Source of the DNA: Parcubacteria group bacterium
Lineage (GTDB): Bacteria; Patescibacteriota; Patescibacteriia; Buchananbacterales; UBA6539
Assembly: GCA_002687175.1 (NCBI GenBank)
Contig: NYZP01000002.1
Span: forward strand, 1,171 to 65,170
Reading direction: 5' to 3'
Length of the DNA: 64,000 bases
The translations under genes were made by a program, and so were the position numbers. The notes beneath the pieces are model-generated. The model did no database searches and was not told the DNA's origin. It saw only the letters and a program-made list of their open reading frames with translations. Positions 6,692 to 45,779 of the stretch are shown in pieces. The stretch's first letter is position 1, and each line of letters begins with the position of its first letter.

Positions 6692-8878
6692 TTAAGATGC
6701 AACTGACCTAGTATGACTACCTGCTAGGGGTTGCCTTTTTTGTAGTTCCTCCAACTGGTCAATGACCTGGGACACAAAACTTTCAGAGCCTATGGCGTGA
6801 ACTCTAATAGCCAAAGCACGATACTCTTTGAGGGCATTCTCAACGGAATGGTTGCTCAAAATGACATGAATAAACAAGGTGTTGGCTGAGGCACTCTTAA
6901 CAGCATCAGATACCTGGCGTTTCTTGTCAGACTCAATAAACGCTACTTTCTTGGCACCAAGGCTACGAATATCCTGAAGCAGTCTGGTCTTGTGTGGAGC
7001 CACCTTCCTGCCACCGATAATCACTACCTTAGAAAAGATAGACAACGGAGGTTGCTCAACAGGCTCAATCTCAGGCTCTGCTGCTGGCGCCGGTACACCC
7101 TGAATATCCAGAATTCTGATAATACCTGCTGAATCTTTAGCTCTGACTGAAACAATCAGAGGAGAGTCAGGAGCCAGCAAGGCCTTCAAGGAATCAGGTT
7201 TAGAAAACAGGGATTGAGCAATGTTTAAGCCCATCTGTTTGCAGACATTAGCGATCTCTTGAAGTCGCAGAAGGTCTCTCCGGGAAAAAGAGTTCCAAAA
7301 CTTTTCACTGTCACTGTCACTAAAGACTGGTAGTGTCTCGCGGATTTCAGCAATCAGTACCCCTCTGGTTGATACGTACTCCTCGTCCCCTTCAGGTCCT
7401 GTTGCTTGAGTAATCCGAGCACTTTCTGCTTGTTTACTTAAGAATCTGTTATATAGATCCTCAAGACCCTTAAGGGCTTGGCAACGTACTGAGAGTTTAC
7501 CGGCACTCATTGCCTTGGTATACATTCCCTTAACGGCCCGCTTGGCATCACCCTGAAGTCTTTGCCCCAAATAACTCCAATACTGCTCGGCTTCATCCTC
7601 TATCTCCTGAGCTATCCAAAGATCCTTTTCCTTCTTGCATAAAGGTCCCAGCAGTCCACGAACAGTCTTCTGACCACGGTCATAAAACGGCAGGGGCTGC
7701 CACAACAGTCTCCCAGGATAATTACGATAGAATACCCAGGTGGTTCTCCTGACTGATTTCTTTGTGGGATAAGCATTCATTTTACTTTCCAGCTCTTCCC
7801 TAACAATCCGCGACATGGACATAGGCAGTATCTGAAGACCAAGACCAAGCGCCAAAACGACAATTCCCCAAAATACCGGTTTACCCCAGTGGCTTAACCA
7901 GACTTCTTGAGCGACCGCATCAGCTATTCTTTGCTGTTCCGGCAAACGATGGGTGTTGAAGTAGTACGAACCGTAAGCCAAAGGCCAGCTGAGCGCAATG
8001 CTATTAGCTTTTTGCTGAATCGTCGTCATCATCAGCTGTCTGGTGCTACGGGCGACGGTTGGTGTGCCTGGCCTGGTTGGCCTCAACCGTTCTGGCATTA
8101 CCCCACTTTCAAGCTGTTTATTCACTTCGGGGGAGAGTGAACGAACACCGACTCCTCGTACATCTTTTTCAACTGTCCTTTGGGCCATAGAATATAACAC
8201 CAGGCACGGACCAACCATTGACCGTAGTTCTCGAACCTGGCTCCTGGAAAAAACAAAATTATAGGACTCGTACGGTTTAGACTCAAACATAAAACCCTGG
8301 TCATCGTTTGAGCTGTAATTATCAATGGTCTTCTGAAGATTAAGAGCAGCCTGCTCCGCCTCTTGTCGCGCCGGGACTGAATTCATCAGAGCTTCATATT
8401 GCCCAACCCGCTGCTCATGACTCTTGGGCATCTGGAAAAATGAGCCCATACTCAATATGGCCGGGCTAAAACGAATGGTTGTGACAATTCGTAACATTTC
8501 ACCTTCTTGCTCAACTTCCTCGTAGTAAAAGTTGATCAAGTCTCCGGTGTAGCTTCGATCCCAATCAATCAATCCTTCAGACTCAATATTGGCCACTGGT
8601 TGAAGGATTTGGCCCAGACTCATCCTTAAAGTTTCGGCAATATGCTTTTTGCCGGAAATCATAAGGGCGTCTGTCATCTTCCTAACTTCGTCAGCTTGGT
8701 GCATAATCTCGAAAGCTGACACCTGCTGGTTCGCCAAAATGTTGATACGCTTTAGTTCAATCTCTGCTTCGATTTGCTTATTACTGGTGAAACCCTCCTG
8801 TCTAAACGAAAAAGCGATGGCCACCGAGCATGCAAGCAACACAAAAAGCAATACTTGTCTCATCTCTTCTTCTCCCAA
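6692..8878 (-). CDS. Large hypothetical membrane protein (signal peptide/TM plus an internal TM) with a DUF2325-like C-terminal domain. The island is mid-GC.
   Basis: 728-aa ORF. The probable start is the second Met (MRQVLLFVLL..., about 8863), which has a GGAGAAG RBS. The C-terminus VVIIGGRKVAPHKTRLLQDIRSLGAKKVAFIESD...FIHVILSNHSVENALKE resembles DUF2325. GC content is much higher than the flanks. Confidence 0.6.
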   Translation of the reverse strand: MGEEEMRQVLLFVLLACSVAIAFSFRQEGFTSNKQIEAEIELKRINILANQQVSAFEIMHQADEVRKMTDALMISGKKHIAETLRMSLGQILQPVANIESEGLIDWDRSYTGDLINFYYEEVEQEGEMLRIVTTIRFSPAILSMGSFFQMPKSHEQRVGQYEALMNSVPARQEAEQAALNLQKTIDNYSSNDDQGFMFESKPYESYNFVFSRSQVRELRSMVGPCLVLYSMAQRTVEKDVRGVGVRSLSPEVNKQLESGVMPERLRPTRPGTPTVARSTRQLMMTTIQQKANSIALSWPLAYGSYYFNTHRLPEQQRIADAVAQEVWLSHWGKPVFWGIVVLALGLGLQILPMSMSRIVREELESKMNAYPTKKSVRRTTWVFYRNYPGRLLWQPLPFYDRGQKTVRGLLGPLCKKEKDLWIAQEIEDEAEQYWSYLGQRLQGDAKRAVKGMYTKAMSAGKLSVRCQALKGLEDLYNRFLSKQAESARITQATGPEGDEEYVSTRGVLIAEIRETLPVFSDSDSEKFWNSFSRRDLLRLQEIANVCKQMGLNIAQSLFSKPDSLKALLAPDSPLIVSVRAKDSAGIIRILDIQGVPAPAAEPEIEPVEQPPLSIFSKVVIIGGRKVAPHKTRLLQDIRSLGAKKVAFIESDKKRQVSDAVKSASANTLFIHVILSNHSVENALKEYRALAIRVHAIGSESFVSQVIDQLEELQKRQPLAGSHTRSVAS

Positions 8879-9039
8879 TTTTTGGACCTAGTTGGTCCGT
8901 TTGTTGTCAACGATCTATTATCTATATAAAACAAGTATAGTCTAGACCATACTTGTGTATCTAATTTAATATTAAACCTTTTTTGTTTAGCTGTCTACCT
9001 GATTAATAGACTGACTAACGAAAAATTCTCAACATTTAT

Positions 9040-12915: not shown

Positions 12916-13299
12916 ATGTTGCAAAAAGTAATCTATCCTGAGTTATCCTATCAAATTATTGGCACCTGTTTTCAAGTACATAATGAGCTGGGTCGCTTTT
13001 GTAAGGAAAAGCAATATGCTGATAGATTAGAACAATTATTGAGAGCTAATCAGCTAAGGTATAGCCGAGAAATAAAAATACCATTTGAATTTAGTGAAGG
13101 ACAAGTTGGTGGTAATATAGCCGACTTCTTAATAGCTAATAAAATAATTTTAGAATGTAAAGCTAAAAAATTTGTTACTAAAGATGACTATCATCAGGTG
13201 CAAAGGTACCTGAAAGCGACAAAAATAAAATTGGGTTTAATTGTAAATTTTAGAACTGTCTATTTAAGTCCAAAGAGAGTCATTAATTATTATTTGTAG
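12916..13299 (+). CDS. GxxExxY family protein (PD-(D/E)xK superfamily).
   Basis: The family name rests on overall resemblance; no specific GxxExxY triplet was matched. It is inserted between yidD and yidC. Confidence 0.65.
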   Translation: MLQKVIYPELSYQIIGTCFQVHNELGRFCKEKQYADRLEQLLRANQLRYSREIKIPFEFSEGQVGGNIADFLIANKIILECKAKKFVTKDDYHQVQRYLKATKIKLGLIVNFRTVYLSPKRVINYYL

Positions 13300-18678: not shown

Positions 18679-19368
18679 TTATTCGGTCTCGTTTTCTTCG
18701 TCTTCAGAGACCGAGGTTTCCACGGCAATTGCCTTGAGGGTTTTGTCCCTCACTACGATCGCGTTTTGAGGAGTGTCGTAACACTGCTCCTTGTCATTCC
18801 AGCTACGGCCAACCATGTTGACTGTCGCACAGCCGTCGGGGTTGTTCCAGACGTGGCAGTACTTCCATGTCGTGTTGGCCAATTCGCGGAGCGCTTCAAC
18901 CGTTTTTCGCAGCAGTTTCGGAATTTTTTCCGAAGGCTCAACTGCCCGATAGGTCAGACAAACCACGAATTTCGGTTTCGGCGAATGCGATTGGCCGGCC
19001 CGTTTGTTAGGCTGATGCCTAAACCAATGGGCGTCGGCGATGACGAAATCATTGTTGGCAAAACCGCTTCGCAGGGCCGCGACCTGGACGTTGAGGAGAT
19101 TGTCAATGACATGTTCTCCCGAGTCCACTCGCTCTTCACGCTTTCTGCTAACCTGAGCCTTCTCCGCCATTCCGTTAACCGCGGCCCAAATGGCGTGTTG
19201 GGAATCAACTTCCTTGTCGCCTTCCCTGGCCTTTTCCGGAATGCCGGCCGGGATGTGCTTGGGGTTAGTGAAGTTAAACTTCACTAGGACACGGTCGGGC
19301 GCTCCTTTGACTGCGCTAAGGCTTACCGTTCCGGTTCCTTCATCCTGCTGCATGGCTGTCGCCTCCAT
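18679..19368 (-). CDS. Hypothetical protein of 229 aa on a mid-GC island. Function unknown.
   Basis: Has its own AAGGAG RBS 9 nt before the ATG. Composition contrasts sharply with the flanks. No motif recognised. Confidence 0.55.
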   Translation of the reverse strand: MEATAMQQDEGTGTVSLSAVKGAPDRVLVKFNFTNPKHIPAGIPEKAREGDKEVDSQHAIWAAVNGMAEKAQVSRKREERVDSGEHVIDNLLNVQVAALRSGFANNDFVIADAHWFRHQPNKRAGQSHSPKPKFVVCLTYRAVEPSEKIPKLLRKTVEALRELANTTWKYCHVWNNPDGCATVNMVGRSWNDKEQCYDTPQNAIVVRDKTLKAIAVETSVSEDEENETE

Positions 19369-19431
19369 TTCAGATCTCCTTCGTTGTTTTTCAGTAATGG
19401 TTGGATTTTGAGTTTTCCGTGAACCACAGTA

Positions 19432-19486
19432 ACTAACACATTTTTAGCACAAAAATTGAATTACCTGCCAAAAATGTGTTAGTTAA
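19432..19486. promoter_or_regulatory. Perfect 15-bp inverted repeat (AACTAACACATTTTT ... AAAAATGTGTTAGTT) with a roughly 25-nt spacer, upstream of the 229-aa gene. Candidate operator.
   Basis: Read directly. The arms are exact reverse complements. Confidence 0.4.
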
Positions 19487-19647
19487 GTAAGATAAATTTT
19501 AACGAACAATACATTAGAATAGCATATTCTGGTAATTTTGTCAATCCCCCCACCTTTTAGTTAAAAGGTGGGGGACTAAAAAAATAGCTAGAATTAGCTA
19601 TTTTTAATACTTAGGCTAGAGGTATTTTTATTGGATAATTAGATTGG

Positions 19648-25257: not shown

Positions 25258-25262
25258 AAATT

Positions 25263-27995: not shown

Positions 27996-28331
27996 CTATT
28001 CTTCCTCGACCGTAAAGGCCAGTGCTTTTACCATTGCTATGGCCTGGTCAGGGTTTATCCTGGTGCCCTGTACATTTGCAAAAGCTAGGTTCGCTCCCTC
28101 CAGATTTGCTCCTCTGAGATCCGCTGAAACAAGACTAACATTTCTTAGATCCGCGTCTCTTAGATCCGCGTCTCTCAGATCTGCGCCCCGCATGGATGGT
28201 ATCCACCTACGGTCTTTCTTTCTCAAACCTGCATTTCGAGCAGCGTTAAACCGCGGAACGTCCTTTCTCAGTTCGTCAGCCAATTCTTGATATCCAAGAT
28301 TAACCCAATCTACTTCTGTCGCGGTACCCAT
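27996..28331 (-). CDS. Pentapeptide-repeat protein (mid-GC island).
   Basis: Consecutive A(D/N)LxxA(D/N)L pentapeptides (GADLRDADLRDADLRNVSLVSADLRGANLEGANLAFANVQG). Confidence 0.75.
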   Translation of the reverse strand: MGTATEVDWVNLGYQELADELRKDVPRFNAARNAGLRKKDRRWIPSMRGADLRDADLRDADLRNVSLVSADLRGANLEGANLAFANVQGTRINPDQAIAMVKALAFTVEEE

Positions 28332-28380: not shown

Positions 28381-29475
28381 TTAGGCGCAAAGTTCACTCC
28401 AGATACGGTGATCCATCAGACGTTTGGCAATATCCACTTCGTAGAACTCCTCAATTGGCTGAAGGATTTCCGGGCTTTCGGTCCAGACAATGTTCAAAGC
28501 ACCGCAAACCCTATCAACGGCTGACACGGACATCTTGCCAAGGGGCATTCGGAGAAACCCGGTGTCCATTCCCAGTCCGGCCATCATCGTTTGGATTGGA
28601 CAGGGGTTAGGGAATTTGTCTTCCACCATGACTTTTTGACCGTGGAATTCTACTTCTCGCTGCACACTCACCCCCACTAAACCGAACAGTGGTTTAAGCT
28701 GGCCGGCCAATTTTTGACCTGTTTGACTGTCACCAGATTGAAAGGCCGCCACCATCTTAGCCACTGCTGCTGGGGCAATGTTACTGATAACCGAGACAAC
28801 ACCGTTACCGTTGATGAGTGGGTCAGTCATCATTGATCCAGTGATTGAATCATCGCCACTCATAATGGAAAACTGTCGTCCGTCGATCATGTTTACGAAA
28901 CGTCGGGTTTCTTGCATGTTTGATAAACTACCAGTGGCTTCTTTGACTCCAATAACATTTGGCCACTGCTCTGCCAAAATTGCCAGATCAACTGGCATAA
29001 GCTGGCAGTTGGTTCGTCCCGGTATGGCATATACTACGTAGCCAACATCGGGGTAAGCGTCGGCCAATGTTCCGGCAATCGGACTGTGGTACTGGTCTCG
29101 CAGTTGTATTGAGGCTGGTTTGTTATAATAACAATCAACCAACAGTACCACATCGGCTCCGTCTCTGGCAGCCGCAGTTGCCATTTCCATGGCCTCCAAA
29201 GTTGAATTTGATCCAGCACCGGCCCAGGCTTGAATTTGCTTGGACGTAATCTCCGCGACAAGCCGGTTTAACTTGATGTGCATTCCTGGATCAACCGTTG
29301 GAGAACAAAACGTTGTCCCTAAAGACAGAACTCCAGTGACACCTTGCGCCATTTGAAACTCAACGTTTCTTTCCAGCTGCTTGCAGTCTTCTTTGCCCTC
29401 AAGATTCAGTGGACCAATCAAGGCAGTTACTGCTCCATTACAGATCATAACTATAACCTCCTGTTGAATTCTCAA
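28381..29475 (-). CDS. DapA-family lyase (4-hydroxy-tetrahydrodipicolinate synthase/NAL superfamily, mid-GC island). The likely start is the second Met at about 29448.
   Basis: DapA-like motifs GTTFCSP (vs GTTGE), CYYNKP (vs PYYN) and the Schiff-base lysine motif VIGVKEATG. AGGAGG RBS 7 nt before the ATG of MICNGA. Confidence 0.8.
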   Translation of the reverse strand: MRIQQEVIVMICNGAVTALIGPLNLEGKEDCKQLERNVEFQMAQGVTGVLSLGTTFCSPTVDPGMHIKLNRLVAEITSKQIQAWAGAGSNSTLEAMEMATAAARDGADVVLLVDCYYNKPASIQLRDQYHSPIAGTLADAYPDVGYVVYAIPGRTNCQLMPVDLAILAEQWPNVIGVKEATGSLSNMQETRRFVNMIDGRQFSIMSGDDSITGSMMTDPLINGNGVVSVISNIAPAAVAKMVAAFQSGDSQTGQKLAGQLKPLFGLVGVSVQREVEFHGQKVMVEDKFPNPCPIQTMMAGLGMDTGFLRMPLGKMSVSAVDRVCGALNIVWTESPEILQPIEEFYEVDIAKRLMDHRIWSELCA

Positions 29476-29818
29476 CGTTTTTTATTCCTGATGGAATGAT
29501 TTACCTTAGTTCAAATATGACCTTTTGTCAACCACAGTCGCTCGAGAGCGACGTGGTCAATATCCTTGTAATTTAATGAGTAAACCCGCCACCTTCTACA
29601 ATGTGACGAGGTAAACAAAAAACTGCCTGTCCAAGCAGATTATTTTGTACCAACTTAGTAAAAAGGTAATCAACCTGGACTAGAAGTCCGGTTTCCTAAC
29701 CTTTCCGTCGGAGACGAGATGCGCCTTCGGCGATTTGTTGTTAGCACAGTAATTCATATAATTAGATTATCATTACCCTAGTTTTTCGTCAATATAAATG
29801 TTAAAATATGAGTAAATT

Positions 29819-32662: not shown

Positions 32663-32716
32663 TTTATTTTACAACCTAAACTCCCCTCCCGAGAGTTTTT
32701 AGGTTATAATAAGTTA

Positions 32717-33220
32717 ATGAAAAAAGTATTGGTTATTGGTTCAAATGGATCAGGAAAATCTACCTTTGCTAACAAGCTTAGCCGGAAGATAAGACTTCCT
32801 TTAATTCATCTTGATCAGCACTACTGGAAACCGGGTTGGCAGAGAACATCTAAGGAGGAGTGGCGCACAAAAGTCACCAGATTACTTCAAAAAGATTCCT
32901 GGATCATGGATGGCAACTACCAAAGCTCGCTTGATATTAGGATACCTGCCAGTGATACAATCATTTGGCTTGATTTGAATCGCTTTGTCTGTTTATGGCG
33001 AGTCCTGAAAAGAAAATTGTTGCAAGATAGAGTTGATAAGCTAAATGGTTGCCAGGAAAGAGTTGACATTCATTTTATAAAGTGGATTTTATGGAATTAC
33101 CCCAGACACGATAAACCAGAAATTAGAAGATTAATAGCAAAACATAAACATAAACAAATCTTTGTCCTAAAGTCACAGCAGAACACTAAGAATCTGCTTG
33201 ACTCCCTTAGTAATAATTAA
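32717..33220 (+). CDS. P-loop NTPase, adenylate-kinase-like (topology modulation protein family).
   Basis: Walker A GSNGSGKST near the N-terminus in a small 167-aa protein. Confidence 0.6.
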   Translation: MKKVLVIGSNGSGKSTFANKLSRKIRLPLIHLDQHYWKPGWQRTSKEEWRTKVTRLLQKDSWIMDGNYQSSLDIRIPASDTIIWLDLNRFVCLWRVLKRKLLQDRVDKLNGCQERVDIHFIKWILWNYPRHDKPEIRRLIAKHKHKQIFVLKSQQNTKNLLDSLSNN

Positions 33221-33222
33221 CT

Positions 33223-35007
33223 ATGTCATTTAAAGATAGTCCAGTAATATTTTTAACCCGCAAGACTTGGCAATACTCCAAGGGCAACCGACGTAACGTC
33301 GTGCTGTACATGGGGCTTTTTTTGATTGCCAACAGCATAAACTTTTTTGAACCTTTACTAGTTGGCCGATTACTTAATATTATTCAAGAACAAGGTGTCA
33401 ACAGCGAGAGTTTGCCAAGCTTAATAGGTACTATTTCATTATTTCTGGCTATTACGGTGGGCTTTTGGATGTTTCATGGTCCGGCTAGAGTGATTGAACT
33501 TAAAAATGCTTTCCTCGTTCGTGCCAACTTCAAGAAATATTTGTTAGACGGGACCATGGATCTACCTACTGAATGGCACACTGATCACCATTCCGGAGAT
33601 ACTATTGATAAGGTAGAAAAAGCCACCACCGCTCTCTATGAATATGCCGGGGATACGTTTGAAGTGATAGACACCATCATTAGGCTACTGGGTTCTTACA
33701 TTGTTTTAAGCTATTTTAATCTTCATTCCAGCTACATTGTTGCCTTCATGGTAGTGTTTACGGTTATTTTAATTTTTAAGTTTGATAAGACTCTGGTTAA
33801 ACAGTACAGTGAACTTTATAAAGCGGAAAATAGAATTGCTGCCAAGATTTTTGATGTTATCAGCAACATCTCAACTGTTATTATTCTACGAATTGAAAGT
33901 TTAGTTTCCAAATCAATTTATCAAAAAGTAATGCAGCCGTTTAGACTTTATTCTAAAAACACCATCCTTAGCGAATCAAAATGGTTATTGGTGTCGGTCA
34001 GTAGTTCAGTAATGATATTTTTGGTGTTGTCATCTTATTTATATTTTAATGTCACTGCCGGTACGACAATTATGATTGGCACAGTCTACATATTATATGG
34101 CTATGTCCAGAGGGTGAACGGTATTTTCTTTAGAGTGGCTTATTTATATAATCGGATTGTTAGACAAAGGACAGCTGTTTATAATGTAGAGGAAATTAGT
34201 AGTAGATTTGAAAATAGAGCCGAACGTACGGCTGGAAATTTAAACAAACAATGGTCAGAACTGCAAATCAAAGATTTGAATTTTTCTTACCACACCAAGG
34301 AAGGTGAAGATCTTCACTTAGATAATGTTAAGTTAGGCATAAAGCGTAATAGTCACACCGCTTTGGTTGGTGAAAGTGGTAGCGGTAAAACAACCTTACT
34401 GAAAATTATTCGAGAATTATATAAAGCCAAGAATGTTAAAGTTTATCTAGATGGTCAAAAGCTTAAAGATGGTTTTAGTTCAATTAGTTCAGACATAACA
34501 TTGATTCCTCAAGATCCGGAAATTTTTACTACCACTATTTTAGAAAATATCACGGTCGGTGTTGAACACAAGTTGTCCTACGTCAAAAAATTTACTGACA
34601 TGGCTCGCTTTACCGAGGTGGCTGAAAGTTTGCCTAAAAAATTTAATTCTTCCATTGTTGAAAGAGGGGTTAATTTAAGTGGTGGTGAGAAACAGCGCCT
34701 GGCATTGGCTCGTGGACTAATGGCTGGTGATGATAAACAAATTATATTGCTCGATGAACCTACCAGTAGTGTTGATTTTGCTAATGAGTGGGAGATTTTT
34801 CAAAATATTTTTGCCGGGTTTAAAGACAAGACCATTATTGCCTCGGTTCATCGTCTTCACCTGCTCCCCCTGTTTGATCAGATCTATTATTTTAAATCCG
34901 GTAAAATAATTGCTGCTGGTAGCTTTGATGAACTTATCAAAAATTCCAAGCCGTTCATTACAGCTTGGAATAAGTATGATAAGAACAAGAATAGCTCCAG
35001 TAATTAA
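33223..35007 (+). CDS. ABC transporter with fused permease and ATPase (exporter type).
   Basis: Six-TM N-terminal half followed by Walker A GESGSGKTT, signature LSGGEKQR and Walker B ILLDEPTS. Confidence 0.85.
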   Translation: MSFKDSPVIFLTRKTWQYSKGNRRNVVLYMGLFLIANSINFFEPLLVGRLLNIIQEQGVNSESLPSLIGTISLFLAITVGFWMFHGPARVIELKNAFLVRANFKKYLLDGTMDLPTEWHTDHHSGDTIDKVEKATTALYEYAGDTFEVIDTIIRLLGSYIVLSYFNLHSSYIVAFMVVFTVILIFKFDKTLVKQYSELYKAENRIAAKIFDVISNISTVIILRIESLVSKSIYQKVMQPFRLYSKNTILSESKWLLVSVSSSVMIFLVLSSYLYFNVTAGTTIMIGTVYILYGYVQRVNGIFFRVAYLYNRIVRQRTAVYNVEEISSRFENRAERTAGNLNKQWSELQIKDLNFSYHTKEGEDLHLDNVKLGIKRNSHTALVGESGSGKTTLLKIIRELYKAKNVKVYLDGQKLKDGFSSISSDITLIPQDPEIFTTTILENITVGVEHKLSYVKKFTDMARFTEVAESLPKKFNSSIVERGVNLSGGEKQRLALARGLMAGDDKQIILLDEPTSSVDFANEWEIFQNIFAGFKDKTIIASVHRLHLLPLFDQIYYFKSGKIIAAGSFDELIKNSKPFITAWNKYDKNKNSSSN

Positions 35008-35052
35008 CCAAAGAAAAAAGCTCGATACCTTATGGTGTTCGAGCTTGTGTGA

Positions 35053-36072
35053 TCAGGCTTGAATGTATAGGCCTGTTTTTTGGTCTTCTTCAACGCCGGG
35101 AGCTTCGATGATTTCACTTTCTTCAAGAAGCCAGTCAACTGCATCTTGAGTTTTATCGTCACAGTCATTTTGACTGACGTCGGACGACAAGGTCCATCTT
35201 TTGGTGCCTACTAAGTAGATCCGCTCAGAAATTTCGGTTACTCCGATGCCGTCAGGCATATTCTCTACTATAATGTCCAGGACAACCGCTTGCCACTCTT
35301 CTTCGGTTTCGATAATAAGTGATTTTCCGCTATAACCGCTGGCACCAGAGCTATCACTTGAAGCACCATTATCGTTGGTGCTTGTACCATAATCTTCAAC
35401 AGCAAAAGGATCAACTTCGTCTTCACCGTTGTCATTCCCGTCATCAAGAGCAAGGCGTTGCCAAACGGCAGGACCCCGGCCATAACTGTCAACCAACCCT
35501 TTTCCTTTAAGCACTTGTAAGAGGCTAGAAACTCGGGAACCAATGGTGAATTGTTTACCATTTTTTGGATGGAATGAATCATCGCCAGCCAACTGCTCTA
35601 CAATTTGAGCATTGGTAATTCCACTCCCATCACTTGGCATCAAGTAGTAAACCCTGGCTTCTTTGGAGTTTGGGTTCAGCCCAATGCCGTTCAAATCAGA
35701 CTGACCGTTTTTCTCGAGCTGCAGATACTTCTCCCAGGCCTTGGCTTCAGCCCACAAGGCTTGATTTTTACCCCGGCCATTACTTTGAACATCTCCAGCC
35801 CTTTTTAATCGTTGGAGGATGTAGTGAACACCGGATTTTAGATCTTCACGATCACCACCTTGAGAATTAAAGGCTTCATCGTCAACTGCCCAGTCGAGAA
35901 TTTGAGAGGTTGTAGTTTCCTTACCTAGATTGAAAAGAAATAAGTAAAGCAGAGCAGTTCGGTAGAGTTGTTTCCCTGGTTTGAATTTGACGTAGTAGGT
36001 CAATTTCTTTTCAGAGGCCCCTTCCTGTTCAGGGGCTAATGCTTTGTCAGTAGCTCCCTTTTCAGGTTGCAT
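35053..36072 (-). CDS. Acidic protein with tandem winged-helix domains resembling Zalpha/Zbeta Z-DNA/RNA-binding domains (mid-GC island).
   Basis: Two copies of a helix-wing pattern, GVHYILQRLKRAGDVQSNGRGKNQALW and SRVSSLLQVLKGKGLVDSYGRGPAVW, compared with ADAR1 Zalpha [23 protein letters not shown]. Followed by an acidic linker and a C-terminal domain. Confidence 0.5.
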   Translation of the reverse strand: MQPEKGATDKALAPEQEGASEKKLTYYVKFKPGKQLYRTALLYLFLFNLGKETTTSQILDWAVDDEAFNSQGGDREDLKSGVHYILQRLKRAGDVQSNGRGKNQALWAEAKAWEKYLQLEKNGQSDLNGIGLNPNSKEARVYYLMPSDGSGITNAQIVEQLAGDDSFHPKNGKQFTIGSRVSSLLQVLKGKGLVDSYGRGPAVWQRLALDDGNDNGEDEVDPFAVEDYGTSTNDNGASSDSSGASGYSGKSLIIETEEEWQAVVLDIIVENMPDGIGVTEISERIYLVGTKRWTLSSDVSQNDCDDKTQDAVDWLLEESEIIEAPGVEEDQKTGLYIQA

Positions 36073-36240
36073 AGTATGTTTCTCCCTGGTTGGTTGAGGG
36101 TAAATTGTTGAAGAGCTTATTTATTAAAGAATGAACTGGTTTTAATCTAGAACAATTATTTGGTTAAGTCAATCAACATAATTACTTACTGTATTTAAAA
36201 AACCCTGACCAATGTCAGGGTAGATGTTGTAAAACTTATT

Positions 36241-36645
36241 TTAGCCTGCTGATTTATTCAATTCAGTCATTATGCAGGGACCACCGTAAACGCAGTTTAT
36301 TTTTTTTTCGGCACAAAAATCAATCGCTTCTTGATTCTCGCTCCCCTCCTGTAACCAAACATTTTCAATGGTGCTGTCTTGGGCAACTTCTTTCAAGACT
36401 TTTAATGTTTGGTCTGGTGGCACGACAAAGACTACGACATTAACTATTACTGGTACATCTAAAACACTGGCATAACAATCTTCACCCAGAATTTCTGGCG
36501 TTTTTAGATTAATTGGAAAAACCATTCTTTTGCTTTCCAGAATGGCTTTAAACACCTTATGACCGTATTTCTCATCATTATTAGTAGCACCGACCACAGC
36601 AAAGGTGTTTCCTTTATTAATCATTTCTTTGATTAATTCTTCCAT
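36241..36645 (-). CDS. CoA-binding domain protein.
   Basis: N-terminal Rossmann-like GNTFAVVGATNNDEKYGHKV typical of YccU/CoA-binding proteins. Confidence 0.65.
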   Translation of the reverse strand: MEELIKEMINKGNTFAVVGATNNDEKYGHKVFKAILESKRMVFPINLKTPEILGEDCYASVLDVPVIVNVVVFVVPPDQTLKVLKEVAQDSTIENVWLQEGSENQEAIDFCAEKKINCVYGGPCIMTELNKSAG

Positions 36646-36682
36646 ATAAATAATTTATAGTTTTTTTTATCTTTTGTCTACA

Positions 36683-37921
36683 TTAAACAGTAAATTTTCC
36701 GTCCTTATATATTACTTTTTGTTTGCCATTTTTAAGAGTGGCGGTAACAGTTCGTTTAGAGGTGGAAATTATATCAGTATGAACTGAACTGTCATTAAAG
36801 CCCAGTTTTTTCCATTGAGCTTTAGTAGTTTTAGCAATGTTACCGGAATAGGCATCATTGTAAGAAGCGCCTAAAGCAATATGAGTATTACCATATGGTC
36901 CACCAATATTTTCGTCATATAATGTCTCGGCCATGAATTTGGAAATTTTAGAGAAACGTTTATCGGTTAAAGAAAATTCACCAACCTTGTTAGCATTAGG
37001 GGTGTCAATCATATGTTTTAAAACGGCATAATTTTTTTTAGCTTTACTGTTGACTACTTTGCCATTTTTAAATTCTAGTTCAATGCCCGTGATTAAATTA
37101 CCATAACGATATAATGGTTGATCAAATTTAATCCAACCATTAGTGCCCCGCCAATCAGGCGAGGTAAAAATTTCAAAGCTAGGAATGTTGGCCCCGCGGC
37201 CACCAAGGAACCTTCTTTTTTCTCCCAATTTAATATTTAGGTCAACGTCTGGTCCTTTGACATTAATGATGTCAATATTAAGGTTGTTCAACTTGGTAAT
37301 AGTTTTTTGAATTTGAGAGGTAACAGCTTTCCATTTTTTAACTGGCGCGCCATCTCGTAAAAAACAGGCTTTAATAATCTCATTCCAATATTCATTTAAA
37401 CTCAGTCCAGCCTCTTTGGCCATTTCCGGGGTACCATACAAAGCCAAGGTCCAAGTGAATCTACCTTTGTTTTCCTTATCCCGTCGCCAGTCCATGTAGG
37501 GTTTAAAGGCTTCGCCACGTTTCATTATTTTTTTAGGATCAACGCCTTTGAGGGCTTGTTTGTCTGTTTCGGAAATTATAAAAATAGAGTGATCAACTTC
37601 ATCAATTAATCCACGAAGATATTTTTTTGGGAAAAAAGATAACTGCTGGTCATTAGCATAATAATAAAATTCACGATCATAAGGATGTTTCTTGTCCGAG
37701 TCAGGCCGAAAGTCAGTAATGGCGTGACCACCAGCTTTAAGAATGGCTCGTCGTAAAGCCATTAACATTGGCTTGGCATATTCATAAACAATAACGTATA
37801 CCGTGTCGCCAGGTTTAATCCCCTTGCCACCGTTAAGGGCAAAGTTAACCAGGACGTCAGCATAGTTGTCTAATATTTTTTGAGAGGGGGAATAATTTTT
37901 CATGAGTACATTATAGCACAA
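36683..37921 (-). CDS. M29-family aminopeptidase (AmpS/aminopeptidase T-like).
   Basis: Length and conserved blocks of thermophilic metalloprotease M29 (about 410 aa). Confidence 0.75.
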   Translation of the reverse strand: MCYNVLMKNYSPSQKILDNYADVLVNFALNGGKGIKPGDTVYVIVYEYAKPMLMALRRAILKAGGHAITDFRPDSDKKHPYDREFYYYANDQQLSFFPKKYLRGLIDEVDHSIFIISETDKQALKGVDPKKIMKRGEAFKPYMDWRRDKENKGRFTWTLALYGTPEMAKEAGLSLNEYWNEIIKACFLRDGAPVKKWKAVTSQIQKTITKLNNLNIDIINVKGPDVDLNIKLGEKRRFLGGRGANIPSFEIFTSPDWRGTNGWIKFDQPLYRYGNLITGIELEFKNGKVVNSKAKKNYAVLKHMIDTPNANKVGEFSLTDKRFSKISKFMAETLYDENIGGPYGNTHIALGASYNDAYSGNIAKTTKAQWKKLGFNDSSVHTDIISTSKRTVTATLKNGKQKVIYKDGKFTV

Positions 37922-40949: not shown

Positions 40950-42431
<1,482 letters not shown>

Positions 42432-42526
42432 AGGGAGATATAAGGATGGAGAGCCGGAATTCCGCTCTTCATCACTAGTCGCCATTCTGAGCAATCAGAG
42501 TGAGGGAATTAGTGTAAATATGAATT

Positions 42527-42562
42527 GGTTTTCCGCCAGAGGCGGACCAGCCTCTGGCTGGT
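42527..42562. repeat. Double-hairpin repeat element, copy B (ccgcc-aga-ggcgg, then ccagcc-tct-ggctgg), followed by a terminator-like hairpin with a T7 run (42590-42615).
   Basis: The second stem carries compensatory changes relative to copy A (cccgcc/ggcggg versus ccagcc/ggctgg). Confidence 0.7.
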
Positions 42563-42763
42563 TGTCACATTTTGTTTGTTAAATAAAAGAACCGTCTTAA
42601 CGGCGGTTTTTTTGTTTGTTAGTATTGACAAAATTGAGATCCTGTGATAAACATAGATTGCCTTTTGTGAGGAAAGGAAAACATGGTGCGTTGCAGTACC
42701 TTTCAAGTAGATAAATCAGCTAGGCCACTTACGGCCACGCAACACCTCACAGGAGGAAGCACC

Positions 42764-43177
42764 ATGGGAAGCTTCGGCGGCTGGTTAACACCAGGAGGTG
42801 GATCATCAGGCCCTGACCCGCGAGAGCAGGTCGAGCGATCCATCAAAGAGCATGGTTGGGTTTTGGAAGCGGCTCGTGTAGCCTTTAATTCCCAAGACCC
42901 ACTCCATTGCTACTACGGTGAAGACTGCAACCCTGACGAATATCTTGGTTACGCTGAGGAATTTGTCAAAATGTTCGAACTGACAGATGTATATGTCGAT
43001 ACCATGGAAACGGTACGCGACAGACATCCAATAACTTCTCTGGACTTTGTCCGGGAAATTGTCAGACGAACATTTGGCCCTTGTCAGTTTATCAGGGGTT
43101 GGGTTTCTTCGGAAGACATTGAAAACATCGCTCAGACTTTGGTCAATGGCGGTGTTAAGATGTCAGCTGAAGGATAG
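42764..43177 (+). CDS. Hypothetical protein of 137 aa on a mid-GC island between the 16S gene and the tRNA cluster.
   Basis: Perfect AGGAGG RBS 7 nt before ATG 42764. The longer track ORF starts at 42683. TTGACA at 42626 upstream. No recognised domain. Confidence 0.5.
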   Translation: MGSFGGWLTPGGGSSGPDPREQVERSIKEHGWVLEAARVAFNSQDPLHCYYGEDCNPDEYLGYAEEFVKMFELTDVYVDTMETVRDRHPITSLDFVREIVRRTFGPCQFIRGWVSSEDIENIAQTLVNGGVKMSAEG

Positions 43178-43217
43178 GAGGATGCCTCCTCCTAACATGC
43201 AGTCGATGCCCAACCGC

Positions 43218-43265
43218 ATCTCACAACCGCTAGCGTATGTTTTTCGCCAGCGGTTATTTTTTAAA
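43218..43265 (+). terminator. Rho-independent terminator after the 137-aa gene.
   Basis: Stem aaccgctagcg...cgccagcggtt followed by a T6 run. Confidence 0.5.
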
Positions 43266-43319
43266 ATAATATTGACTAAACAGACTTTTATTGTTATATT
43301 AGTTTATGTTTAAAATTAA

Positions 43320-43396
43320 GGGCGATTAGCTCAGTTGGTTAGAGCGCGTCACTGATAATGACGAGGTCCGAGGTTCAAATCCTCGATCGCCCACCA
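43320..43396 (+). tRNA. tRNA-Ile (GAT), CCA encoded.
   Basis: Cloverleaf GGGCGAT...ATCGCCC with anticodon loop CTGATAA. Confidence 0.9.
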
Positions 43397-43452
43397 TTAT
43401 ATATTAATATGCCGAGTTAGCTCAGTGAGGTCCCAAACCTTCTGGTGAATCG

Positions 43453-43527
43453 GCCGAGTTAGCTCAGTGGTAGAGCGAAGGACTGAAAATCCTTGCGTCC
43501 CCAGTTCAATTCTGGGACTCGGCACCA
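43453..43527 (+). tRNA. tRNA-Phe (GAA), CCA encoded, embedded in a 17-bp inverted repeat.
   Basis: Cloverleaf GCCGAGT...ACTCGGC with anticodon loop CTGAAAA. Confidence 0.9.
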
Positions 43528-43624
43528 GAAGGTTTGGGATAAACTCCGGACTGAAATTATTGTATCTCAATTCAGTTCCGGGACTTGGTACAATATTTCT
43601 CTCCTAACGGAGTGAAAACATTGG

Positions 43625-43701
43625 CGGGGTGTGGCGCAGTTGGCTAGCGCGCGTCGTTTGGGACGATGAGGTCGTGGGTTCGAGTCCCACCACCCCGACC
43701 A
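43625..43701 (+). tRNA. tRNA-Pro (TGG), CCA encoded.
   Basis: Matches the E. coli tRNA-Pro architecture, with anticodon loop TTTGGGA. Confidence 0.9.
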
Positions 43702-43744
43702 TCACAACATAGCGTATTTATTATTGTTTGGACAGTATTAAAAT

Positions 43745-43772
43745 TGTCATCCCTGCGAAAGCAGGGATCCAG
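43745..43772. repeat. Left 28-bp terminal inverted repeat of the GIY-YIG cassette (tgtcatccctgcgaaagcagggatccag).
   Basis: Exact reverse complement of 44070-44097. Each arm is itself a hairpin. Confidence 0.8.
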
Positions 43773-43779
43773 AAACGCT

Positions 43780-44067
43780 ATGATGACCTATTACGTTTAT
43801 ATACTTGCCAGTAAAAGAAATGGAACGCTCTATGTTGGTGTTACTAATGACTTGGCAAGAAGGGCCTATGAGCATAGAGCAGGCTTAATTAAAGGTTTTA
43901 CAAAAAAATACGGGGTTAAGGTGCTAGTTTATTTTGAAGAGTTTGACGATATTGGTTTTGCAATTCAGAGGGAGAGAAATTTAAAAAAATGGAAACGTGA
44001 CTGGAAATTAAATCTAATTGAGAGTTCTAATCCGGACTGGGAAGATTTATACTTTGAATTAGATTAA
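43780..44067 (+). CDS. GIY-YIG nuclease family protein (UPF0213/YhbQ-like, about 95 aa).
   Basis: GIY-YIG motif YYVYILASKRNGTLYVGVTNDLARRAYEH. The start is the Met at 43780 or 43783; the upstream part of the track ORF overlaps tRNA-Pro. Confidence 0.8.
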   Translation: MMTYYVYILASKRNGTLYVGVTNDLARRAYEHRAGLIKGFTKKYGVKVLVYFEEFDDIGFAIQRERNLKKWKRDWKLNLIESSNPDWEDLYFELD

Positions 44068-44069
44068 TA

Positions 44070-44097
44070 CTGGATCCCTGCTTTCGCAGGGATGACA
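44070..44097. repeat. Right 28-bp terminal inverted repeat of the GIY-YIG cassette.
   Basis: ctggatccctgctttcgcagggatgaca, the reverse complement of the left arm. Confidence 0.8.
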
Positions 44098-44106
44098 GAA
44101 AAGTGT

Positions 44107-44181
44107 GCGGGTATAGTATAGTGGCTATTATGTCAGGTTTCCAACCTGAAGAGGCGGGTTCGATTCCCGCTACCCGCTCCA
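44107..44181 (+). tRNA. tRNA-Gly (TCC).
   Basis: Near-identical architecture to E. coli glyT, with anticodon loop TTTCCAA. Followed by a terminator at 44195-44230. Confidence 0.9.
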
Positions 44182-44280: not shown

Positions 44281-45201
44281 ATGAATGATAAGATAATCTT
44301 CGTAATAGGTCATCCTAGGTCGGGCACAACTTTATTAAATAAGGTGTTGTTAGCCCATCCTAAAATTAACTTTATTACTTTTGAGTTTAACGATTTATCT
44401 TATTTTTACTTTAATCAACATTTATATGAAAAATATGGTAAAGAAAAATATTTAATGATGACTAAAGATTTTTTTAAACATCCTTGGATTCAACTATCTT
44501 TGATTCAACAACCAGTAGAAAGCATCAAGACAAGTAATATCAATACAAATAATTTTCAACAGTTCGTCCATAGTTTTTTAAATGAATTTAGACTTCCAAA
44601 AGATAACAATCTAATTGGCATAAAGATATCTGATAATATTACCAATAATGTTTCGATGATCGCTCAAATTTTTAAGGATGCTCACTGTGTTCATATTATT
44701 CGTGATCCACGGGATATTTTTCTTTCAACGAAAAAAAACTTTGGAACAGTCAGCCCTTTTTATGGAGGAAAATCTTGGGCGGAAAATGTCAGCCAGATTA
44801 TGTCACTTAAGAATGAGTTGAAGCATTATTATGAATTACGATACGAACAATTTGTGACTAATTCAAAAGAAGAGTTAGAAAAACTGTGCTCTTTTTTAGG
44901 GGTAGATTTTGATAATCAAATGTTAGAGTTTTATAAAAAAATAATTAATCCTTCTAAGTCTCATTCTCTCCTGACAAAAAAAATTGTTACTAATAATTTT
45001 AACAAATGGCAAACAAATCTTAGTGATAAAAAGTTGGAATTACTCTATGCTGGAGCCGGTGCCAAGATTTTTCAGCTTGGATATTCTGACAAAGAACATA
45101 ATAGCAGAATAAGTTTCTTGGAAAGATTAAAGGAATTTATTTTGGAGAAAAGCAGATTGTCAGTGCCGCTGGTTTTAGTCCGGCAGAGTTTGCCCAGGTA
45201 A
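44281..45201 (+). CDS. Sulfotransferase-family protein. The last 50 nt or so of the ORF run into the GC-rich pyrD remnant.
   Basis: 5'-PSB motif HPRSGTTLL and 3'-PB-like RDPRD. AT-rich until about 45150. Confidence 0.6.
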   Translation: MNDKIIFVIGHPRSGTTLLNKVLLAHPKINFITFEFNDLSYFYFNQHLYEKYGKEKYLMMTKDFFKHPWIQLSLIQQPVESIKTSNINTNNFQQFVHSFLNEFRLPKDNNLIGIKISDNITNNVSMIAQIFKDAHCVHIIRDPRDIFLSTKKNFGTVSPFYGGKSWAENVSQIMSLKNELKHYYELRYEQFVTNSKEELEKLCSFLGVDFDNQMLEFYKKIINPSKSHSLLTKKIVTNNFNKWQTNLSDKKLELLYAGAGAKIFQLGYSDKEHNSRISFLERLKEFILEKSRLSVPLVLVRQSLPR

Positions 45202-45779
45202 CGGGAGTAATTTTTAACGCCGGTGCCGACGTTGCTGAAGAGAACCTAGGCTGTCCCAACGTTTGGGATGGTGGTGCACAAAAAGGTATCGCCTCTTTTA
45301 GCCCCGTGGCGACTCACGAGATACTTGAAGCAGTCGAGAGAGAAGTTGGCGTTGATGCCAACATTTTGGTCAAGCTCTCGCCTTTTTCTAACCCGGCAGA
45401 CCTGAGCGAAGTTGCCTCAGTGCTTGGAGAGTCTAAGTTAGTCAAAGCGGTAGTTACCTGTAATACTTTTCCCAACGCTTTTGCCATTGACGGAGATGGC
45501 GATCCCTGGATTTCCCCTGGCGGTGGTTTGGCGGGAATGGCAGGACCGGCTCTTAAGCCAATTGGCATGGGTCAAGTTAAGCAGTTTCGGGCTCAGCTTC
45601 CAGAGCGTATTCAGATCGTTGGCGTTGGTGGAATTCGTTCAGGGCAGGATGTTCTTGATTATTTACGAGCCGGTGCGGACGCGGTGGCCATTGCCACCAG
45701 CTTAGTGGAGGAAGGTCCGGCGGTGTTCAGCAGAATACTTTCCGAGTATGTCGATTTGGTCGAATCGGGAGAAAATTAA
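45186..45779 (+). pseudogene. pyrD: Promoterless 3' fragment (about the C-terminal half) of dihydroorotate dehydrogenase (PyrD), mid-GC.
   Basis: Translation covers ...IFNAGADVAEENLGCPNVWDGG...GGLAGMAGPALKPIGMGQVKQFR...QIVGVGGIRSGQDVLDYLRAGADAVAIATSL. The N-terminal FMN-binding half is absent, and the fragment is out of frame with the upstream sulfotransferase ORF. Confidence 0.5.

What the first reader, a model, noticed from the sequence alone, without database searches (positions are those of the whole stretch)
6692..45779. Six mid-GC (about 45-55% GC) coding islands embedded in an AT-rich, CPR-like core-gene backbone.
These ORFs are compositionally distinct from the surrounding housekeeping genes:
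- 6692-8878, a 728-aa membrane protein;
- 18679-19368, a 229-aa unknown protein;
- 27996-29475, the pentapeptide plus DapA-like pair;
- 35053-36072, the tandem winged-helix protein;
- 42764-43177, a 137-aa unknown protein;
- 45186-45779, a pyrD fragment.
The transitions are abrupt, within tens of bases, for example near 18670, 19430, 27950, 29760 and 45150. Each complete gene carries its own Shine-Dalgarno. At least one gene, pyrD, is a dead fragment. This pattern fits repeated horizontal acquisition, or alternatively assembly chimerism. None of these proteins is a standard housekeeping function for a reduced genome. Whether they act together is unknown.
Basis: partly seen in the sequence, partly recalled or inferred. 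Interest (0 to 1): 0.8.

Follow-up and report, generated by a model that had tools for sequence, protein, structure and literature searches.

The report
GC-rich accessory genes in CPR chromosome
Six genes or gene pairs in this AT-rich marine Candidatus Buchananbacteria (CPR) chromosome really are much GC-richer than their neighbours, but they are unrelated accessory genes in gaps between core genes, half of them long-standing residents of the lineage, not an assembly error or one imported system.

Summary
All seven island ORFs exceed all 53 backbone ORFs in GC (0.45-0.54 vs mean 0.36) and in GC3. Assembly chimerism is rejected: independent assemblies from several projects reproduce every junction at 99.9-100% identity.

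Recent foreign acquisition holds for only some islands.
- **Native to the lineage:** the DHDPS-family gene, the 229-aa gene and the pyrD remnant. Their homologs lie at the same positions in other Buchananbacteria or CPR genomes and are GC-rich there too. The pyrD piece is a native gene cut at residue 97 by an AT-rich sulfotransferase segment.
- **Lineage-specific:** island 1 (723 aa) and island 4 (339 aa) are ORFans inserted where relatives have adjacent core genes. No relatives were seen for ORF137 or the pentapeptide gene, which were searched less deeply.

No integrase, flanking repeats, phage or defence signatures were found, and nothing links the six.

Side finding: the 229-aa gene follows a conserved promoter and a covarying 25-bp leader hairpin. 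Nine Buchananbacteria genomes have this leader downstream of polA, ahead of unrelated GC-rich genes.

Best reading: ordinary flexible-genome slots fed mainly by gene flow within CPR. Why long-resident genes stay GC-rich is unresolved.

The parts
6692..8863 (-). Island 1: 723-aa ORFan with predicted N-terminal and internal hydrophobic segments. It is part of a 3.6-kb insertion (5456-9039) between the convergent PBP1 and dnaN genes. GC 0.47.
   Evidence: GC and GC3 z = 3.6 and 3.5. Only its own sequence was found among 5.8 billion clusters. No Pfam, PADLOC, PHROG, NCBIfam or PDB match. dnaN and PBP1 are 60-77 nt apart in L015 and L016. The same context appears in L093 and L094.
18679..19368 (-). 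Island 2: 229-aa protein of a small clade-specific family. It is the GC-richest island (GC 0.54, GC3 0.63).
   Evidence: Homologs lie just downstream of polA in L009 (60% identity, GC 0.60 vs polA 0.41) and L007 (33% identity, GC +0.11). The codon-position GC pattern indicates coding sequence. There is no family or structure match.
19423..19544 (-). Expression site of island 2: promoter TTGACAAAA-N11-TATGCTAT (19544-19519), box TATTGTTCGTTAAAAT (19511-19496) and a leader hairpin with a 20-bp stem (19485-19430). This stretch is AT-rich.
   Evidence: It aligns with the L009 and L007 leaders. Fold z = -4.5. The eight-genome consensus is a 25-bp helix with 21 compensatory pairs, and 0 of 500 shuffles reach the observed values. 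The covariance model scores 72 bits here and 44 bits on the untrained L012. It is not in Rfam.
27996..28331 (-). Island 3a: 111-aa pentapeptide-repeat protein, 49 nt downstream of the DHDPS gene and probably co-transcribed with it.
   Evidence: Pfam PF00805, E = 9e-18. No counterpart was found in relatives' loci. GC 0.49.
28381..29475 (-). Island 3b: DHDPS-fold (DapA-like) aldolase, probably starting at ATG 29448. It is a clade-conserved resident of the smc|polA slot.
   Evidence: Pfam PF00701, E = 1e-47. It scores 163 bits against the dapA equivalog model, whose cutoff is 206. Homologs of 42-49% identity sit in the same slot in L007, L013, L014, L016, L017 and L019, with GC excess +0.05 to +0.16. 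These copies cluster in the NJ tree.
35053..36072 (-). Island 4: 339-aa acidic ORFan with an internal repeat. It is a mild GC outlier (0.45) inside a 5.7-kb lineage-specific block (32231-37921) that otherwise has backbone GC.
   Evidence: z = 3.1 for GC and 2.0 for GC3. An exhaustive HMMER search found only itself and two weak repeat hits. smc and rpsP are adjacent in relatives.
42764..43177 (+). Island 5: 137-aa protein with no detected relatives, with its own promoter, Shine-Dalgarno and terminator. It lies in the spacer between the 16S rRNA (40951-42429) and tRNA-Ile (43320).
   Evidence: No family, viral or PDB match. The context is reproduced in NCBI contig DJKP01000073.1.
45144..45779 (+). 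Island 6: C-terminal remnant (residues 97 to the end) of a native CPR-type dihydroorotate dehydrogenase. It has no Shine-Dalgarno or start codon of its own.
   Evidence: Pfam DHO_dh profile positions 119-286 of 291. It is 70% identical over 205 residues, with no gaps, to intact P0002, starting at P0002 residue 97. The best named hits are CPR. In L086 pyrD is followed by a 206-aa gene that is 58% identical to window 45832-46446.
44281..45201 (+). AT-rich (GC 0.30) sulfotransferase gene. Its last ~17 codons read out of frame into the pyrD remnant. It is part of the AT-rich segment 43715-45151 that replaced the 5' part of pyrD.
   Evidence: Pfam PF13469, E = 2e-26. Frame analysis. Segmentation.

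Best explanation
The six islands are not one system. They are independent accessory transcription units, each with its own promoter, Shine-Dalgarno and terminator. They occupy the gaps between conserved core genes near the replication origin of an AT-rich marine Buchananbacteria chromosome.

**Shown:**
- The core order PBP1-dnaN-dnaA-...-holA-[slot]-polA-[slot]-smc-rpsP is conserved across the clade.
- The slots are where gene content differs between genomes.
- Three islands (DHDPS-like, the 229-aa gene, pyrD) belong to families resident in this lineage or in CPR.
- Islands 1 and 4 are lineage-specific ORFan insertions.

**Inferred:** the GC excess arises because slot genes turn over through gene flow within the CPR gene pool, whose genomes span about 28-60% GC. 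Turnover would occur by recombination through conserved flanks and by insertion into terminator gaps. An AT-rich recipient then carries genes that have not equilibrated, or have only partly equilibrated, with its own mutational bias. The islands imply several different source compositions (about 44-56% GC), so they record separate events rather than one donor.

The pyrD island is the reverse case: a GC-richer native gene was truncated by an AT-rich newcomer.
For: - Real and reproducible.
- Synteny map with variable slots. dnaN-PBP1 spacing.
- Unrelated CDS families follow a homologous leader in the same slot.
- Homologs are from the same lineage.
- An imported recombination tract lies at the edge of a slot: 15 mostly third-position differences within 73 bp at the smc 3' end, in an assembly that is otherwise identical.
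- AT-rich outlier ORFs also exist, so the heterogeneity runs both ways.
- Islands fit the host's synonymous-codon model worse than backbone genes do. Island 2 fits the 56% GC clade member L019 best.
- Implied source GC differs between islands.
- Elsewhere the DHDPS family tracks host GC (slope 0.92), so the protein family itself does not force high GC.
- Published survey: islands and transferred genes are common in Patescibacteria, and about 83% of predicted transfers occur within the phylum (PMC12455944).
Against: - No donor was found. The closest DHDPS copy in the species representatives and JGI metagenomes is 49% identical.
- DHDPS copies and the 408-466-aa slot family are all deeply diverged from one another, with no unusually close pair.
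- If these genes were inherited vertically since the clade ancestor, their synonymous sites should have equilibrated. Yet GC3 stays 0.10-0.32 above the host.
- The GC-rich tracts stop at the CDS and terminator, while the conserved promoter and leader are AT-rich. That is not what simple flank-mediated replacement predicts.
- There are no mobility genes, target duplications or phage relatives.
Confidence: 0.5

Rival explanations
1. In-situ maintenance. The GC-rich genes are long-term vertical residents. Their coding sequences are held GC-rich by a gene-specific or site-specific force. This could be selection, for example for mRNA stability together with the 5' leader hairpin, or GC-biased gene conversion at recombination-prone slots.
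For: - The DHDPS gene is syntenic, clusters as one clade group, and is GC-elevated in every AT-rich member but not in the 56% GC member.
- Every CDS that follows the polA-downstream leader is GC-rich whatever its family: GC 0.525-0.60 where hosts are 0.36-0.46, and 0.61 in the 56% GC genome L019.
- GC richness is confined to the CDS and terminator, while the orthologous promoter and leader are AT-rich.
- No close donor-recipient pairs were seen.
Against: - No established mechanism produces GC3 shifts of 0.15-0.4 in single bacterial genes.
- Ribosomal and translation genes here have the lowest GC3, so this is not expression-linked codon bias.
- polA, which lies between the two slots, has backbone GC, so a purely positional effect is unlikely.
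- The islands differ from one another in GC.
- The non-functional pyrD remnant is still GC-rich.
Confidence: 0.25
2. Recent cross-phylum transfer. The islands were imported from non-CPR organisms of about 45-55% GC, possibly the symbiont's host.
For: - Islands 1 and 4 are lineage-specific insertions with mid-GC composition and non-host codon usage.
- ORF137 and the pentapeptide gene have the same composition and no relatives were seen, though they were searched less deeply.
- Pentapeptide proteins are widespread outside CPR.
- Two of the named pyrD hits are labelled Dehalococcoidia.
Against: - Three islands have same-lineage, syntenic homologs.
- Islands 1 and 4 have no homologs in any phylum among billions of proteins, so no donor phylum can be named.
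- All signals (promoter, Shine-Dalgarno, terminator) are host-type.
Confidence: 0.12
3. Assembly or binning chimera. GC-rich pieces from other organisms were joined into an AT-rich contig.
For: Abrupt compositional junctions. The source is a metagenome assembly.
Against: - The same junctions at 99.9-100% identity come from different assemblers, samples and projects.
- Related genomes show the same architecture, with GC-rich genes in the same slots.
- The junctions fall at gene boundaries with intact host-type signals.
Confidence: 0.01
4. The six islands form one functional module or regulon.
For: Shared compositional oddity. All are non-housekeeping genes.
Against: - They are dispersed over 39 kb in separate transcription units.
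- The leader motif model hits only island 2 in the window.
- The islands differ in phyletic pattern: clade-wide, species-specific, or remnant.
- One is a dead fragment.
- No defence-system match was found.
Confidence: 0.03

Closest known systems
Flexible genomic islands of streamlined marine bacteria (replacement and additive islands between conserved core genes, as described for SAR11, Prochlorococcus and Alteromonas; from my own knowledge)
   Same: Variable gene content sits at fixed positions between conserved core genes. Unrelated genes occupy the same locus in different genomes. There are no integrases or repeats, and exchange is inferred to go through homologous flanks. One island lies next to rRNA and tRNA genes.
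   Different: Here the variation is between species or genera, not strains: the islands are fixed in all sampled assemblies of this species. The occupants are consistently GC-richer than the host. One slot carries a conserved promoter and a structured leader.
Genomic islands and individually transferred genes in Patescibacteria (PMC12455944)
   Same: The same superphylum. Islands are detected by composition, most inferred donors are other Patescibacteria, and the cargo is metabolic and unknown-function genes.
   Different: That study did not report persistent GC excess of syntenic clade-resident genes, or a conserved leader in front of exchangeable genes. No donor-recipient pair could be identified here.
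Classical horizontally acquired genomic islands undergoing amelioration (Lawrence and Ochman model; from my own knowledge)
   Same: Deviant GC and codon usage. For the pyrD remnant and the pentapeptide gene, GC3 is closer to the host than GC1 and GC2 are.
   Different: No integrase, no tRNA-borne attachment site, no direct repeats, and single genes rather than large blocks. Three islands have same-lineage syntenic homologs, which the model would expect to be fully ameliorated.
Integron gene cassettes
   Same: One fixed promoter drives interchangeable, unrelated CDSs. An imperfect inverted repeat able to form a hairpin is associated with the cassette, and some copies end in CTAAC...GTTAG.
   Different: No integrase is nearby. 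The hairpin lies upstream of the CDS in the transcribed leader, not downstream as attC does. The CTAAC/GTTAG ends are absent from most genomes. G-U pairs and the sense-strand score indicate an RNA element. There is one CDS, not an array.
5' UTR stem-loops that stabilise mRNA or serve as RNase III sites (for example ompA, ermC and pnp leaders; from my own knowledge)
   Same: A long, near-perfect hairpin lies close to the predicted transcript 5' end, between a strong promoter and the Shine-Dalgarno.
   Different: Function is untested here. At 20-35 bp the stem is unusually long, and the element is conserved at one chromosomal position across a CPR clade.

Membership tests
Classical mobile genomic island | Compositional deviation from the host genome | tested here: met
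   GC z = 3.1-6.2 and GC3 z = 2.0-7.0. Poor fit to the host codon model.
Classical mobile genomic island | Integrase, transposase or other mobility gene inside or beside the island | tested here: not met
   Pfam scans of the island proteins and most flanking genes show none. The only nuclease-like gene is a small GIY-YIG ORF near islands 5 and 6.
Classical mobile genomic island | Flanking direct repeats or a tRNA-borne attachment site | tested here: not met
   No bracketing repeats at islands 1-4. Islands 5 and 6 lie in a tRNA cluster, but no duplicated tRNA 3' end brackets them.
Classical mobile genomic island | Absent from related genomes at that position | tested here: inconclusive
   Met for island 1 and for the block holding island 4. 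Not met for the DHDPS gene, the 229-aa gene and pyrD, which are syntenic in relatives.
Assembly chimera | Junctions not reproducible in independent data | tested here: not met
   Six or more independent contigs are collinear at 99.9-100% identity.
Replacement-type flexible genomic island | Same locus between conserved core genes holds unrelated genes in different genomes | tested here: met
   The holA|polA slot holds the 229-aa family, a 400-466-aa family and singletons. hhalign gives 0.2% probability that the 229-aa and 408-466-aa families are related.
Replacement-type flexible genomic island | Variation among strains of one species | tested here: not met
   All contigs carrying the identical polA have the same neighbours. 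Only a few samples were available.
Integron cassette | Tyrosine-recombinase IntI with attI, and attC downstream of each cassette | tested here: not met
   No recombinase is among the scanned neighbours. The hairpin is upstream of the CDS and behaves as sense-strand RNA.
DapA (4-hydroxy-tetrahydrodipicolinate synthase) | Score above the curated equivalog cutoff | tested here: not met
   TIGR00674: 163 bits against a cutoff of 206.
DapA (4-hydroxy-tetrahydrodipicolinate synthase) | Schiff-base lysine in the KEA(T/S)G motif and the conserved Tyr, Thr and Arg residues | tested here: inconclusive
   K178, Y149, T54/T55, Y116/Y117 and R154 are invariant in the clade alignment. Their equivalence to E. 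coli K161, Y133, T44/T45, Y106/Y107 and R138 rests on my memory. The window copy alone reads GTTFC where the clade has GTTGE.
Dihydroorotate dehydrogenase (PyrD) | Complete DHO_dh domain including the N-terminal FMN and substrate-binding half | tested here: not met
   Only profile positions 119-286 of 291 are present. Homology starts at residue 97 of the intact relative.
Known cis-regulatory RNA (Rfam) | Match at or above a family's gathering score for the island-2 leader | tested here: not met
   The best match is 33 bits against a gathering score of 80. The whole-window gathering scan lists nothing there.

The most novel reading that the evidence does not exclude
Buchananbacteria keep a dedicated expression site just downstream of polA: a strong promoter, a conserved box and a covarying 20-35-bp leader hairpin. 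Unrelated genes are swapped in behind it. Their coding sequences, like that of the neighbouring DHDPS gene, are actively held 10-20 GC points above the AT-rich genome by selection on the transcript or by biased gene conversion. That would be a gene-specific compositional constraint not described for CPR, and the leader would be a new cis-regulatory RNA class.
Probability: 0.2. Interest if true: 0.6.

Novelty: new member of a known kind. Interest (0 to 1): 0.35.

Why it matters
The finding is not an artefact, and this MAG region can be trusted. Near the origin of a reduced CPR chromosome, gene content changes only in a few gaps between conserved core genes.

It also gives a caution. Composition-based calls of foreign DNA in AT-rich CPR genomes will flag genes that are in fact long-standing, syntenic members of the lineage.

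The persistent GC excess of such genes, and the conserved structured leader in front of exchangeable genes, are testable leads on gene flow, amelioration and gene regulation in organisms that cannot yet be grown.

Tried and rejected
- **Joined query.** A query made by joining three island proteins returned nothing, not even the proteins themselves, because the word-candidate list saturated. One of three searches was wasted.
- **Congruence test.** Comparing DHDPS with polA and smc divergence has no power. The clade is star-like: all pairs are 67-73% identical, and even polA against smc is uncorrelated.
- **Phage origin.** Four viral-contig scans and PHROGs gave nothing beyond generic pentapeptide hits.
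- **Defence system.** PADLOC gave one weak, insignificant hit.
- **Structured RNA instead of protein.** Rejected for the 229-aa region by its codon-position GC periodicity and by protein-level conservation.
- **rRNA fragment or ncRNA in the 16S-tRNA spacer.** Rfam finds nothing there.
- **Riboswitch upstream of the DHDPS gene.** No Rfam match, and fold z is only -1.8.
- **Structure prediction of the 229-aa protein.** pLDDT was 40, which is unusable, so no fold search was run.
- **PDB sequence searches of the four unknown proteins.** Nothing found.
- **Single-protein metagenome scan for DHDPS.** Nothing found. The alignment-based rescan worked.
- **Intrinsic high GC of the DHDPS family.** Rejected, because the family tracks host GC elsewhere.
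- **Shared leader linking all the islands.** Rejected by the covariance-model search.

Full report

Yes. The window is 38% GC. Fifty-three backbone ORFs average GC 0.362 (sd 0.029, max 0.434) and GC3 0.305 (max 0.386). The seven island ORFs have GC 0.453-0.543 and GC3 0.400-0.630. Each one lies above every backbone ORF on both measures.

A two-state segmentation that knows nothing about genes recovers four of the six islands to within tens of bases. It also calls 40968-43714. That block is the 16S rRNA (40951-42429), the ORF137 island and four tRNAs. The 35053-36072 gene is the mildest outlier (z about 3) and is missed at that stringency.

Junctions are sharpest at island 2 and the pyrD piece. 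Each complete gene has a Shine-Dalgarno and a terminator. The pyrD piece has neither a start codon nor a Shine-Dalgarno.

**2. Is it an assembly artefact?**

No. Exact-protein look-ups returned contigs from Tara Oceans scaffolds, a MEGAHIT marine assembly, a SPAdes assembly, Logan, JGI and an NCBI MAG (GCA_002434675.1). These are collinear with the window at 99.9-100% identity across the junctions of all six islands.

**3. What is the backbone?**

It is a replication-origin region: PBP1, dnaN, dnaA, rnpA, yidC, holA, truD, polA, a suf operon, smc, rpsP, trmD, the 16S rRNA and infB.

The nearest species representatives by PolA (66-71% identity) are Candidatus Buchananbacteria (Patescibacteria, CPR). 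Their loci have median ORF GC from about 0.36 to 0.58.

Their shared core order is PBP1-dnaN-dnaA-...-holA-[slot]-polA-[slot]-smc-rpsP.

**4. The islands one by one**

**Island 1** (723 aa from ATG 8863). In relatives dnaN and PBP1 are convergent neighbours 60-77 nt apart. The window has 3.6 kb there. The protein matches only itself among 5.8 billion clusters. It has no family, phage, defence or PDB match.

**Island 2** (229 aa). Homologs lie immediately downstream of polA in L009 (60% identity) and L007 (33%). Both are GC-rich relative to their hosts.

**Island 3.**
- The DHDPS-fold gene has homologs of 42-49% identity in six Buchananbacteria species representatives, always between smc and polA. 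Their GC exceeds the host by +0.05 to +0.16. The excess is about 0 in the 56% GC member.
- In a rough NJ tree these copies group together, apart from 80 metagenomic relatives.
- The gene scores below the dapA equivalog cutoff, although the catalytic-type residues are conserved in the clade alignment.
- The pentapeptide gene downstream has no counterpart in relatives.

**Island 4** (339 aa). This is an ORFan. It lies inside a 5.7-kb block (rhodanese, a P-loop protein, an ABC transporter, a CoA-binding protein, an M29 peptidase) that is absent from between smc and rpsP in relatives. The rest of that block has backbone GC.

**Island 5** (137 aa). No relatives were detected. It has its own promoter, Shine-Dalgarno and terminator, and lies between the 16S rRNA and tRNA-Ile. 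It was searched less deeply than islands 1 and 4.

**Island 6** (pyrD remnant).
- Its named best hits are almost all CPR.
- The closest intact gene (P0002, 70% identity) sits on L086 and is followed by a 206-aa gene that is 58% identical to the window's next gene. So pyrD followed by this gene is an ancestral arrangement.
- Homology begins at residue 97 of the intact protein and runs 205 residues without gap or stop.
- Upstream, an AT-rich sulfotransferase gene reads out of frame into it.
- The native gene was therefore truncated, probably recently, by the AT-rich segment.

**5. Is there anything mobile?**

No integrase or transposase was found. No bracketing repeats flank islands 1-4. There are no close viral relatives and no defence-system signature.

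**6. The compositional puzzle**

Across 41 metagenomic loci of the wider DHDPS family, gene GC tracks host GC (slope 0.92, mean excess +0.017). The protein family therefore does not impose high GC.

Within Buchananbacteria, however, the syntenic copies remain GC-rich in AT-rich hosts. The genes in the slot downstream of polA do the same: GC 0.51-0.60 where the host median is 0.36-0.46, and 0.58-0.61 in the two GC-richer genomes L006 and L019.

The clade is star-like, so tree congruence could not be tested. No pair of copies is unusually similar.

Islands fit the host's synonymous-codon model worse than backbone genes do: -1.63 to -1.96 against -1.42 to -1.55 bits per codon. Only island 2 fits another sampled genome better, the 56% GC member L019.

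Codon-position GC implies different source compositions for different islands, about 44-56% (using regression lines recalled from Lawrence and Ochman).

**7. A conserved expression site**

Upstream of island 2 lie these elements:
- the polA terminator
- a near-consensus promoter
- a TATTGTTCGTTAAAAT box
- a leader hairpin with a 20-bp stem

The same arrangement occurs downstream of polA in L007, L008, L009, L013, L016, L017 and L019.

The consensus is a 25-bp helix. Twenty-one pairs keep pairing through changes on both sides. Pairing is 86.7%, against 38-51% when the partner is slid, and 0 of 500 shuffles reach the observed values.

A covariance model finds an untrained ninth instance in L012. 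In the window it finds only this copy, and the sense strand scores far higher than the antisense. The element is not in Rfam.

The CDSs behind it belong to at least three unrelated groups, and all are GC-rich. The promoter and leader are AT-rich. This shows that gene replacement does happen at this site. It also shows that GC richness is confined to the coding part.

**8. Evidence of recombination**

The only differences between the window and one Tara assembly are 15 substitutions within 73 bp at the 3' end of smc, mostly at third codon positions. This looks like an imported tract from a diverged relative at the edge of a variable slot.

**9. Interpretation**

The islands are a heterogeneous set of accessory genes in flexible slots of a CPR chromosome. 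A published survey of Patescibacteria describes this kind of pattern: islands are common and most inferred transfers are within the phylum (PMC12455944).

- I favour gene flow within the CPR pool, with incomplete equilibration, as the cause of the GC contrast (confidence about 0.5).
- The main rival is active in-situ maintenance of GC in these coding sequences (about 0.25). The clade-wide, syntenic GC excess and the CDS-limited boundaries support it.
- Recent cross-phylum import remains possible for the islands with no detected relatives, but it cannot be shown (about 0.12).
- Chimerism and a single functional system are rejected.

**10. Verdict**

This is a known kind of feature, with two modestly novel leads: persistent GC excess in resident genes, and a conserved structured leader ahead of exchangeable genes. 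Interest is moderate to low.

Noticed in passing
window 19423-19544 (- strand); also L007 13970-14066, L009 3165-3278, L008 13791-13882, L013 5823-5916, L016 12800-12923, L017 14521-14605, L019 8212-8287, L012 12075-12165: A conserved promoter, a GYTCTTT box and a covarying long leader hairpin lie downstream of polA in nine Buchananbacteria genomes, ahead of unrelated GC-rich genes. The element is not in Rfam. It is a candidate new cis-regulatory RNA, perhaps an mRNA stabiliser or an RNase III site.
   Followed up: yes
window 32110-32182 (3' end of smc), compared with locus L005: All 15 differences between the window and an otherwise identical 16.8-kb Tara assembly fall within 73 bp, mostly at third codon positions. 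This looks like a recombination tract imported from a diverged relative, at the border of a variable slot.
   Followed up: partly
window 43745-44097: A small GIY-YIG nuclease ORF (43780-44067) is bracketed by a perfect 28-nt inverted repeat (43745-43772 and 44070-44097). Each arm contains its own small hairpin. It lies between tRNA-Pro and tRNA-Gly and may be a mobile mini-element.
   Followed up: no
window 73-435, 724-1143, 12916-13299, 44281-45201: AT-rich outlier ORFs (GC 0.29-0.31, z -2.0 to -2.6). They include a PDDEXK_3 protein near the origin and the sulfotransferase that truncates pyrD. Compositional heterogeneity therefore runs in both directions.
   Followed up: partly
window 40951-44181: The 16S rRNA is not followed by a 23S gene within the window. 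It is followed by a protein gene (ORF137) and then tRNA-Ile, tRNA-Phe, tRNA-Pro and tRNA-Gly, so the rRNA genes appear to be unlinked.
   Followed up: partly
window 29600-29770 (- strand): The 343-nt region upstream of the DHDPS gene holds a promoter, a stretch of about 140 nt that is moderately structured, and a terminator-like hairpin (29638-29623), followed by a second promoter. It has no Rfam match and fold z is -1.8. It could be a small RNA or an attenuator.
   Followed up: partly
window 22603-27867 and 32231-37921: Compared with relatives, a suf operon (rrf2-sufCBDS-nifU) lies between polA and the DHDPS gene, and a 5.7-kb block lies between smc and rpsP. Apart from island 4, both have backbone GC. 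They are rearrangements or older insertions.
   Followed up: partly
window 28381-29475, protein residues 53-58: The window's DHDPS-like protein reads GTTFCS where all six clade homologs have GTTGES. It may have diverged in function.
   Followed up: no
window 50712-51026: A T-box leader (127 bits, above the gathering score) lies upstream of genes at about 50.9-54 kb. The listed GTG start of ORF 50924-51577 overlaps it and is probably mis-called.
   Followed up: no
L087/L089 10001-12664 and L090 10001-12541: Other CPR genomes carry pyrD together with pyrE and pyrF as a partial pyrimidine module. pyrE and pyrF, and in L090 pyrD too, are GC-richer than their neighbours (0.51-0.61 vs 0.43-0.52).
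   Followed up: partly
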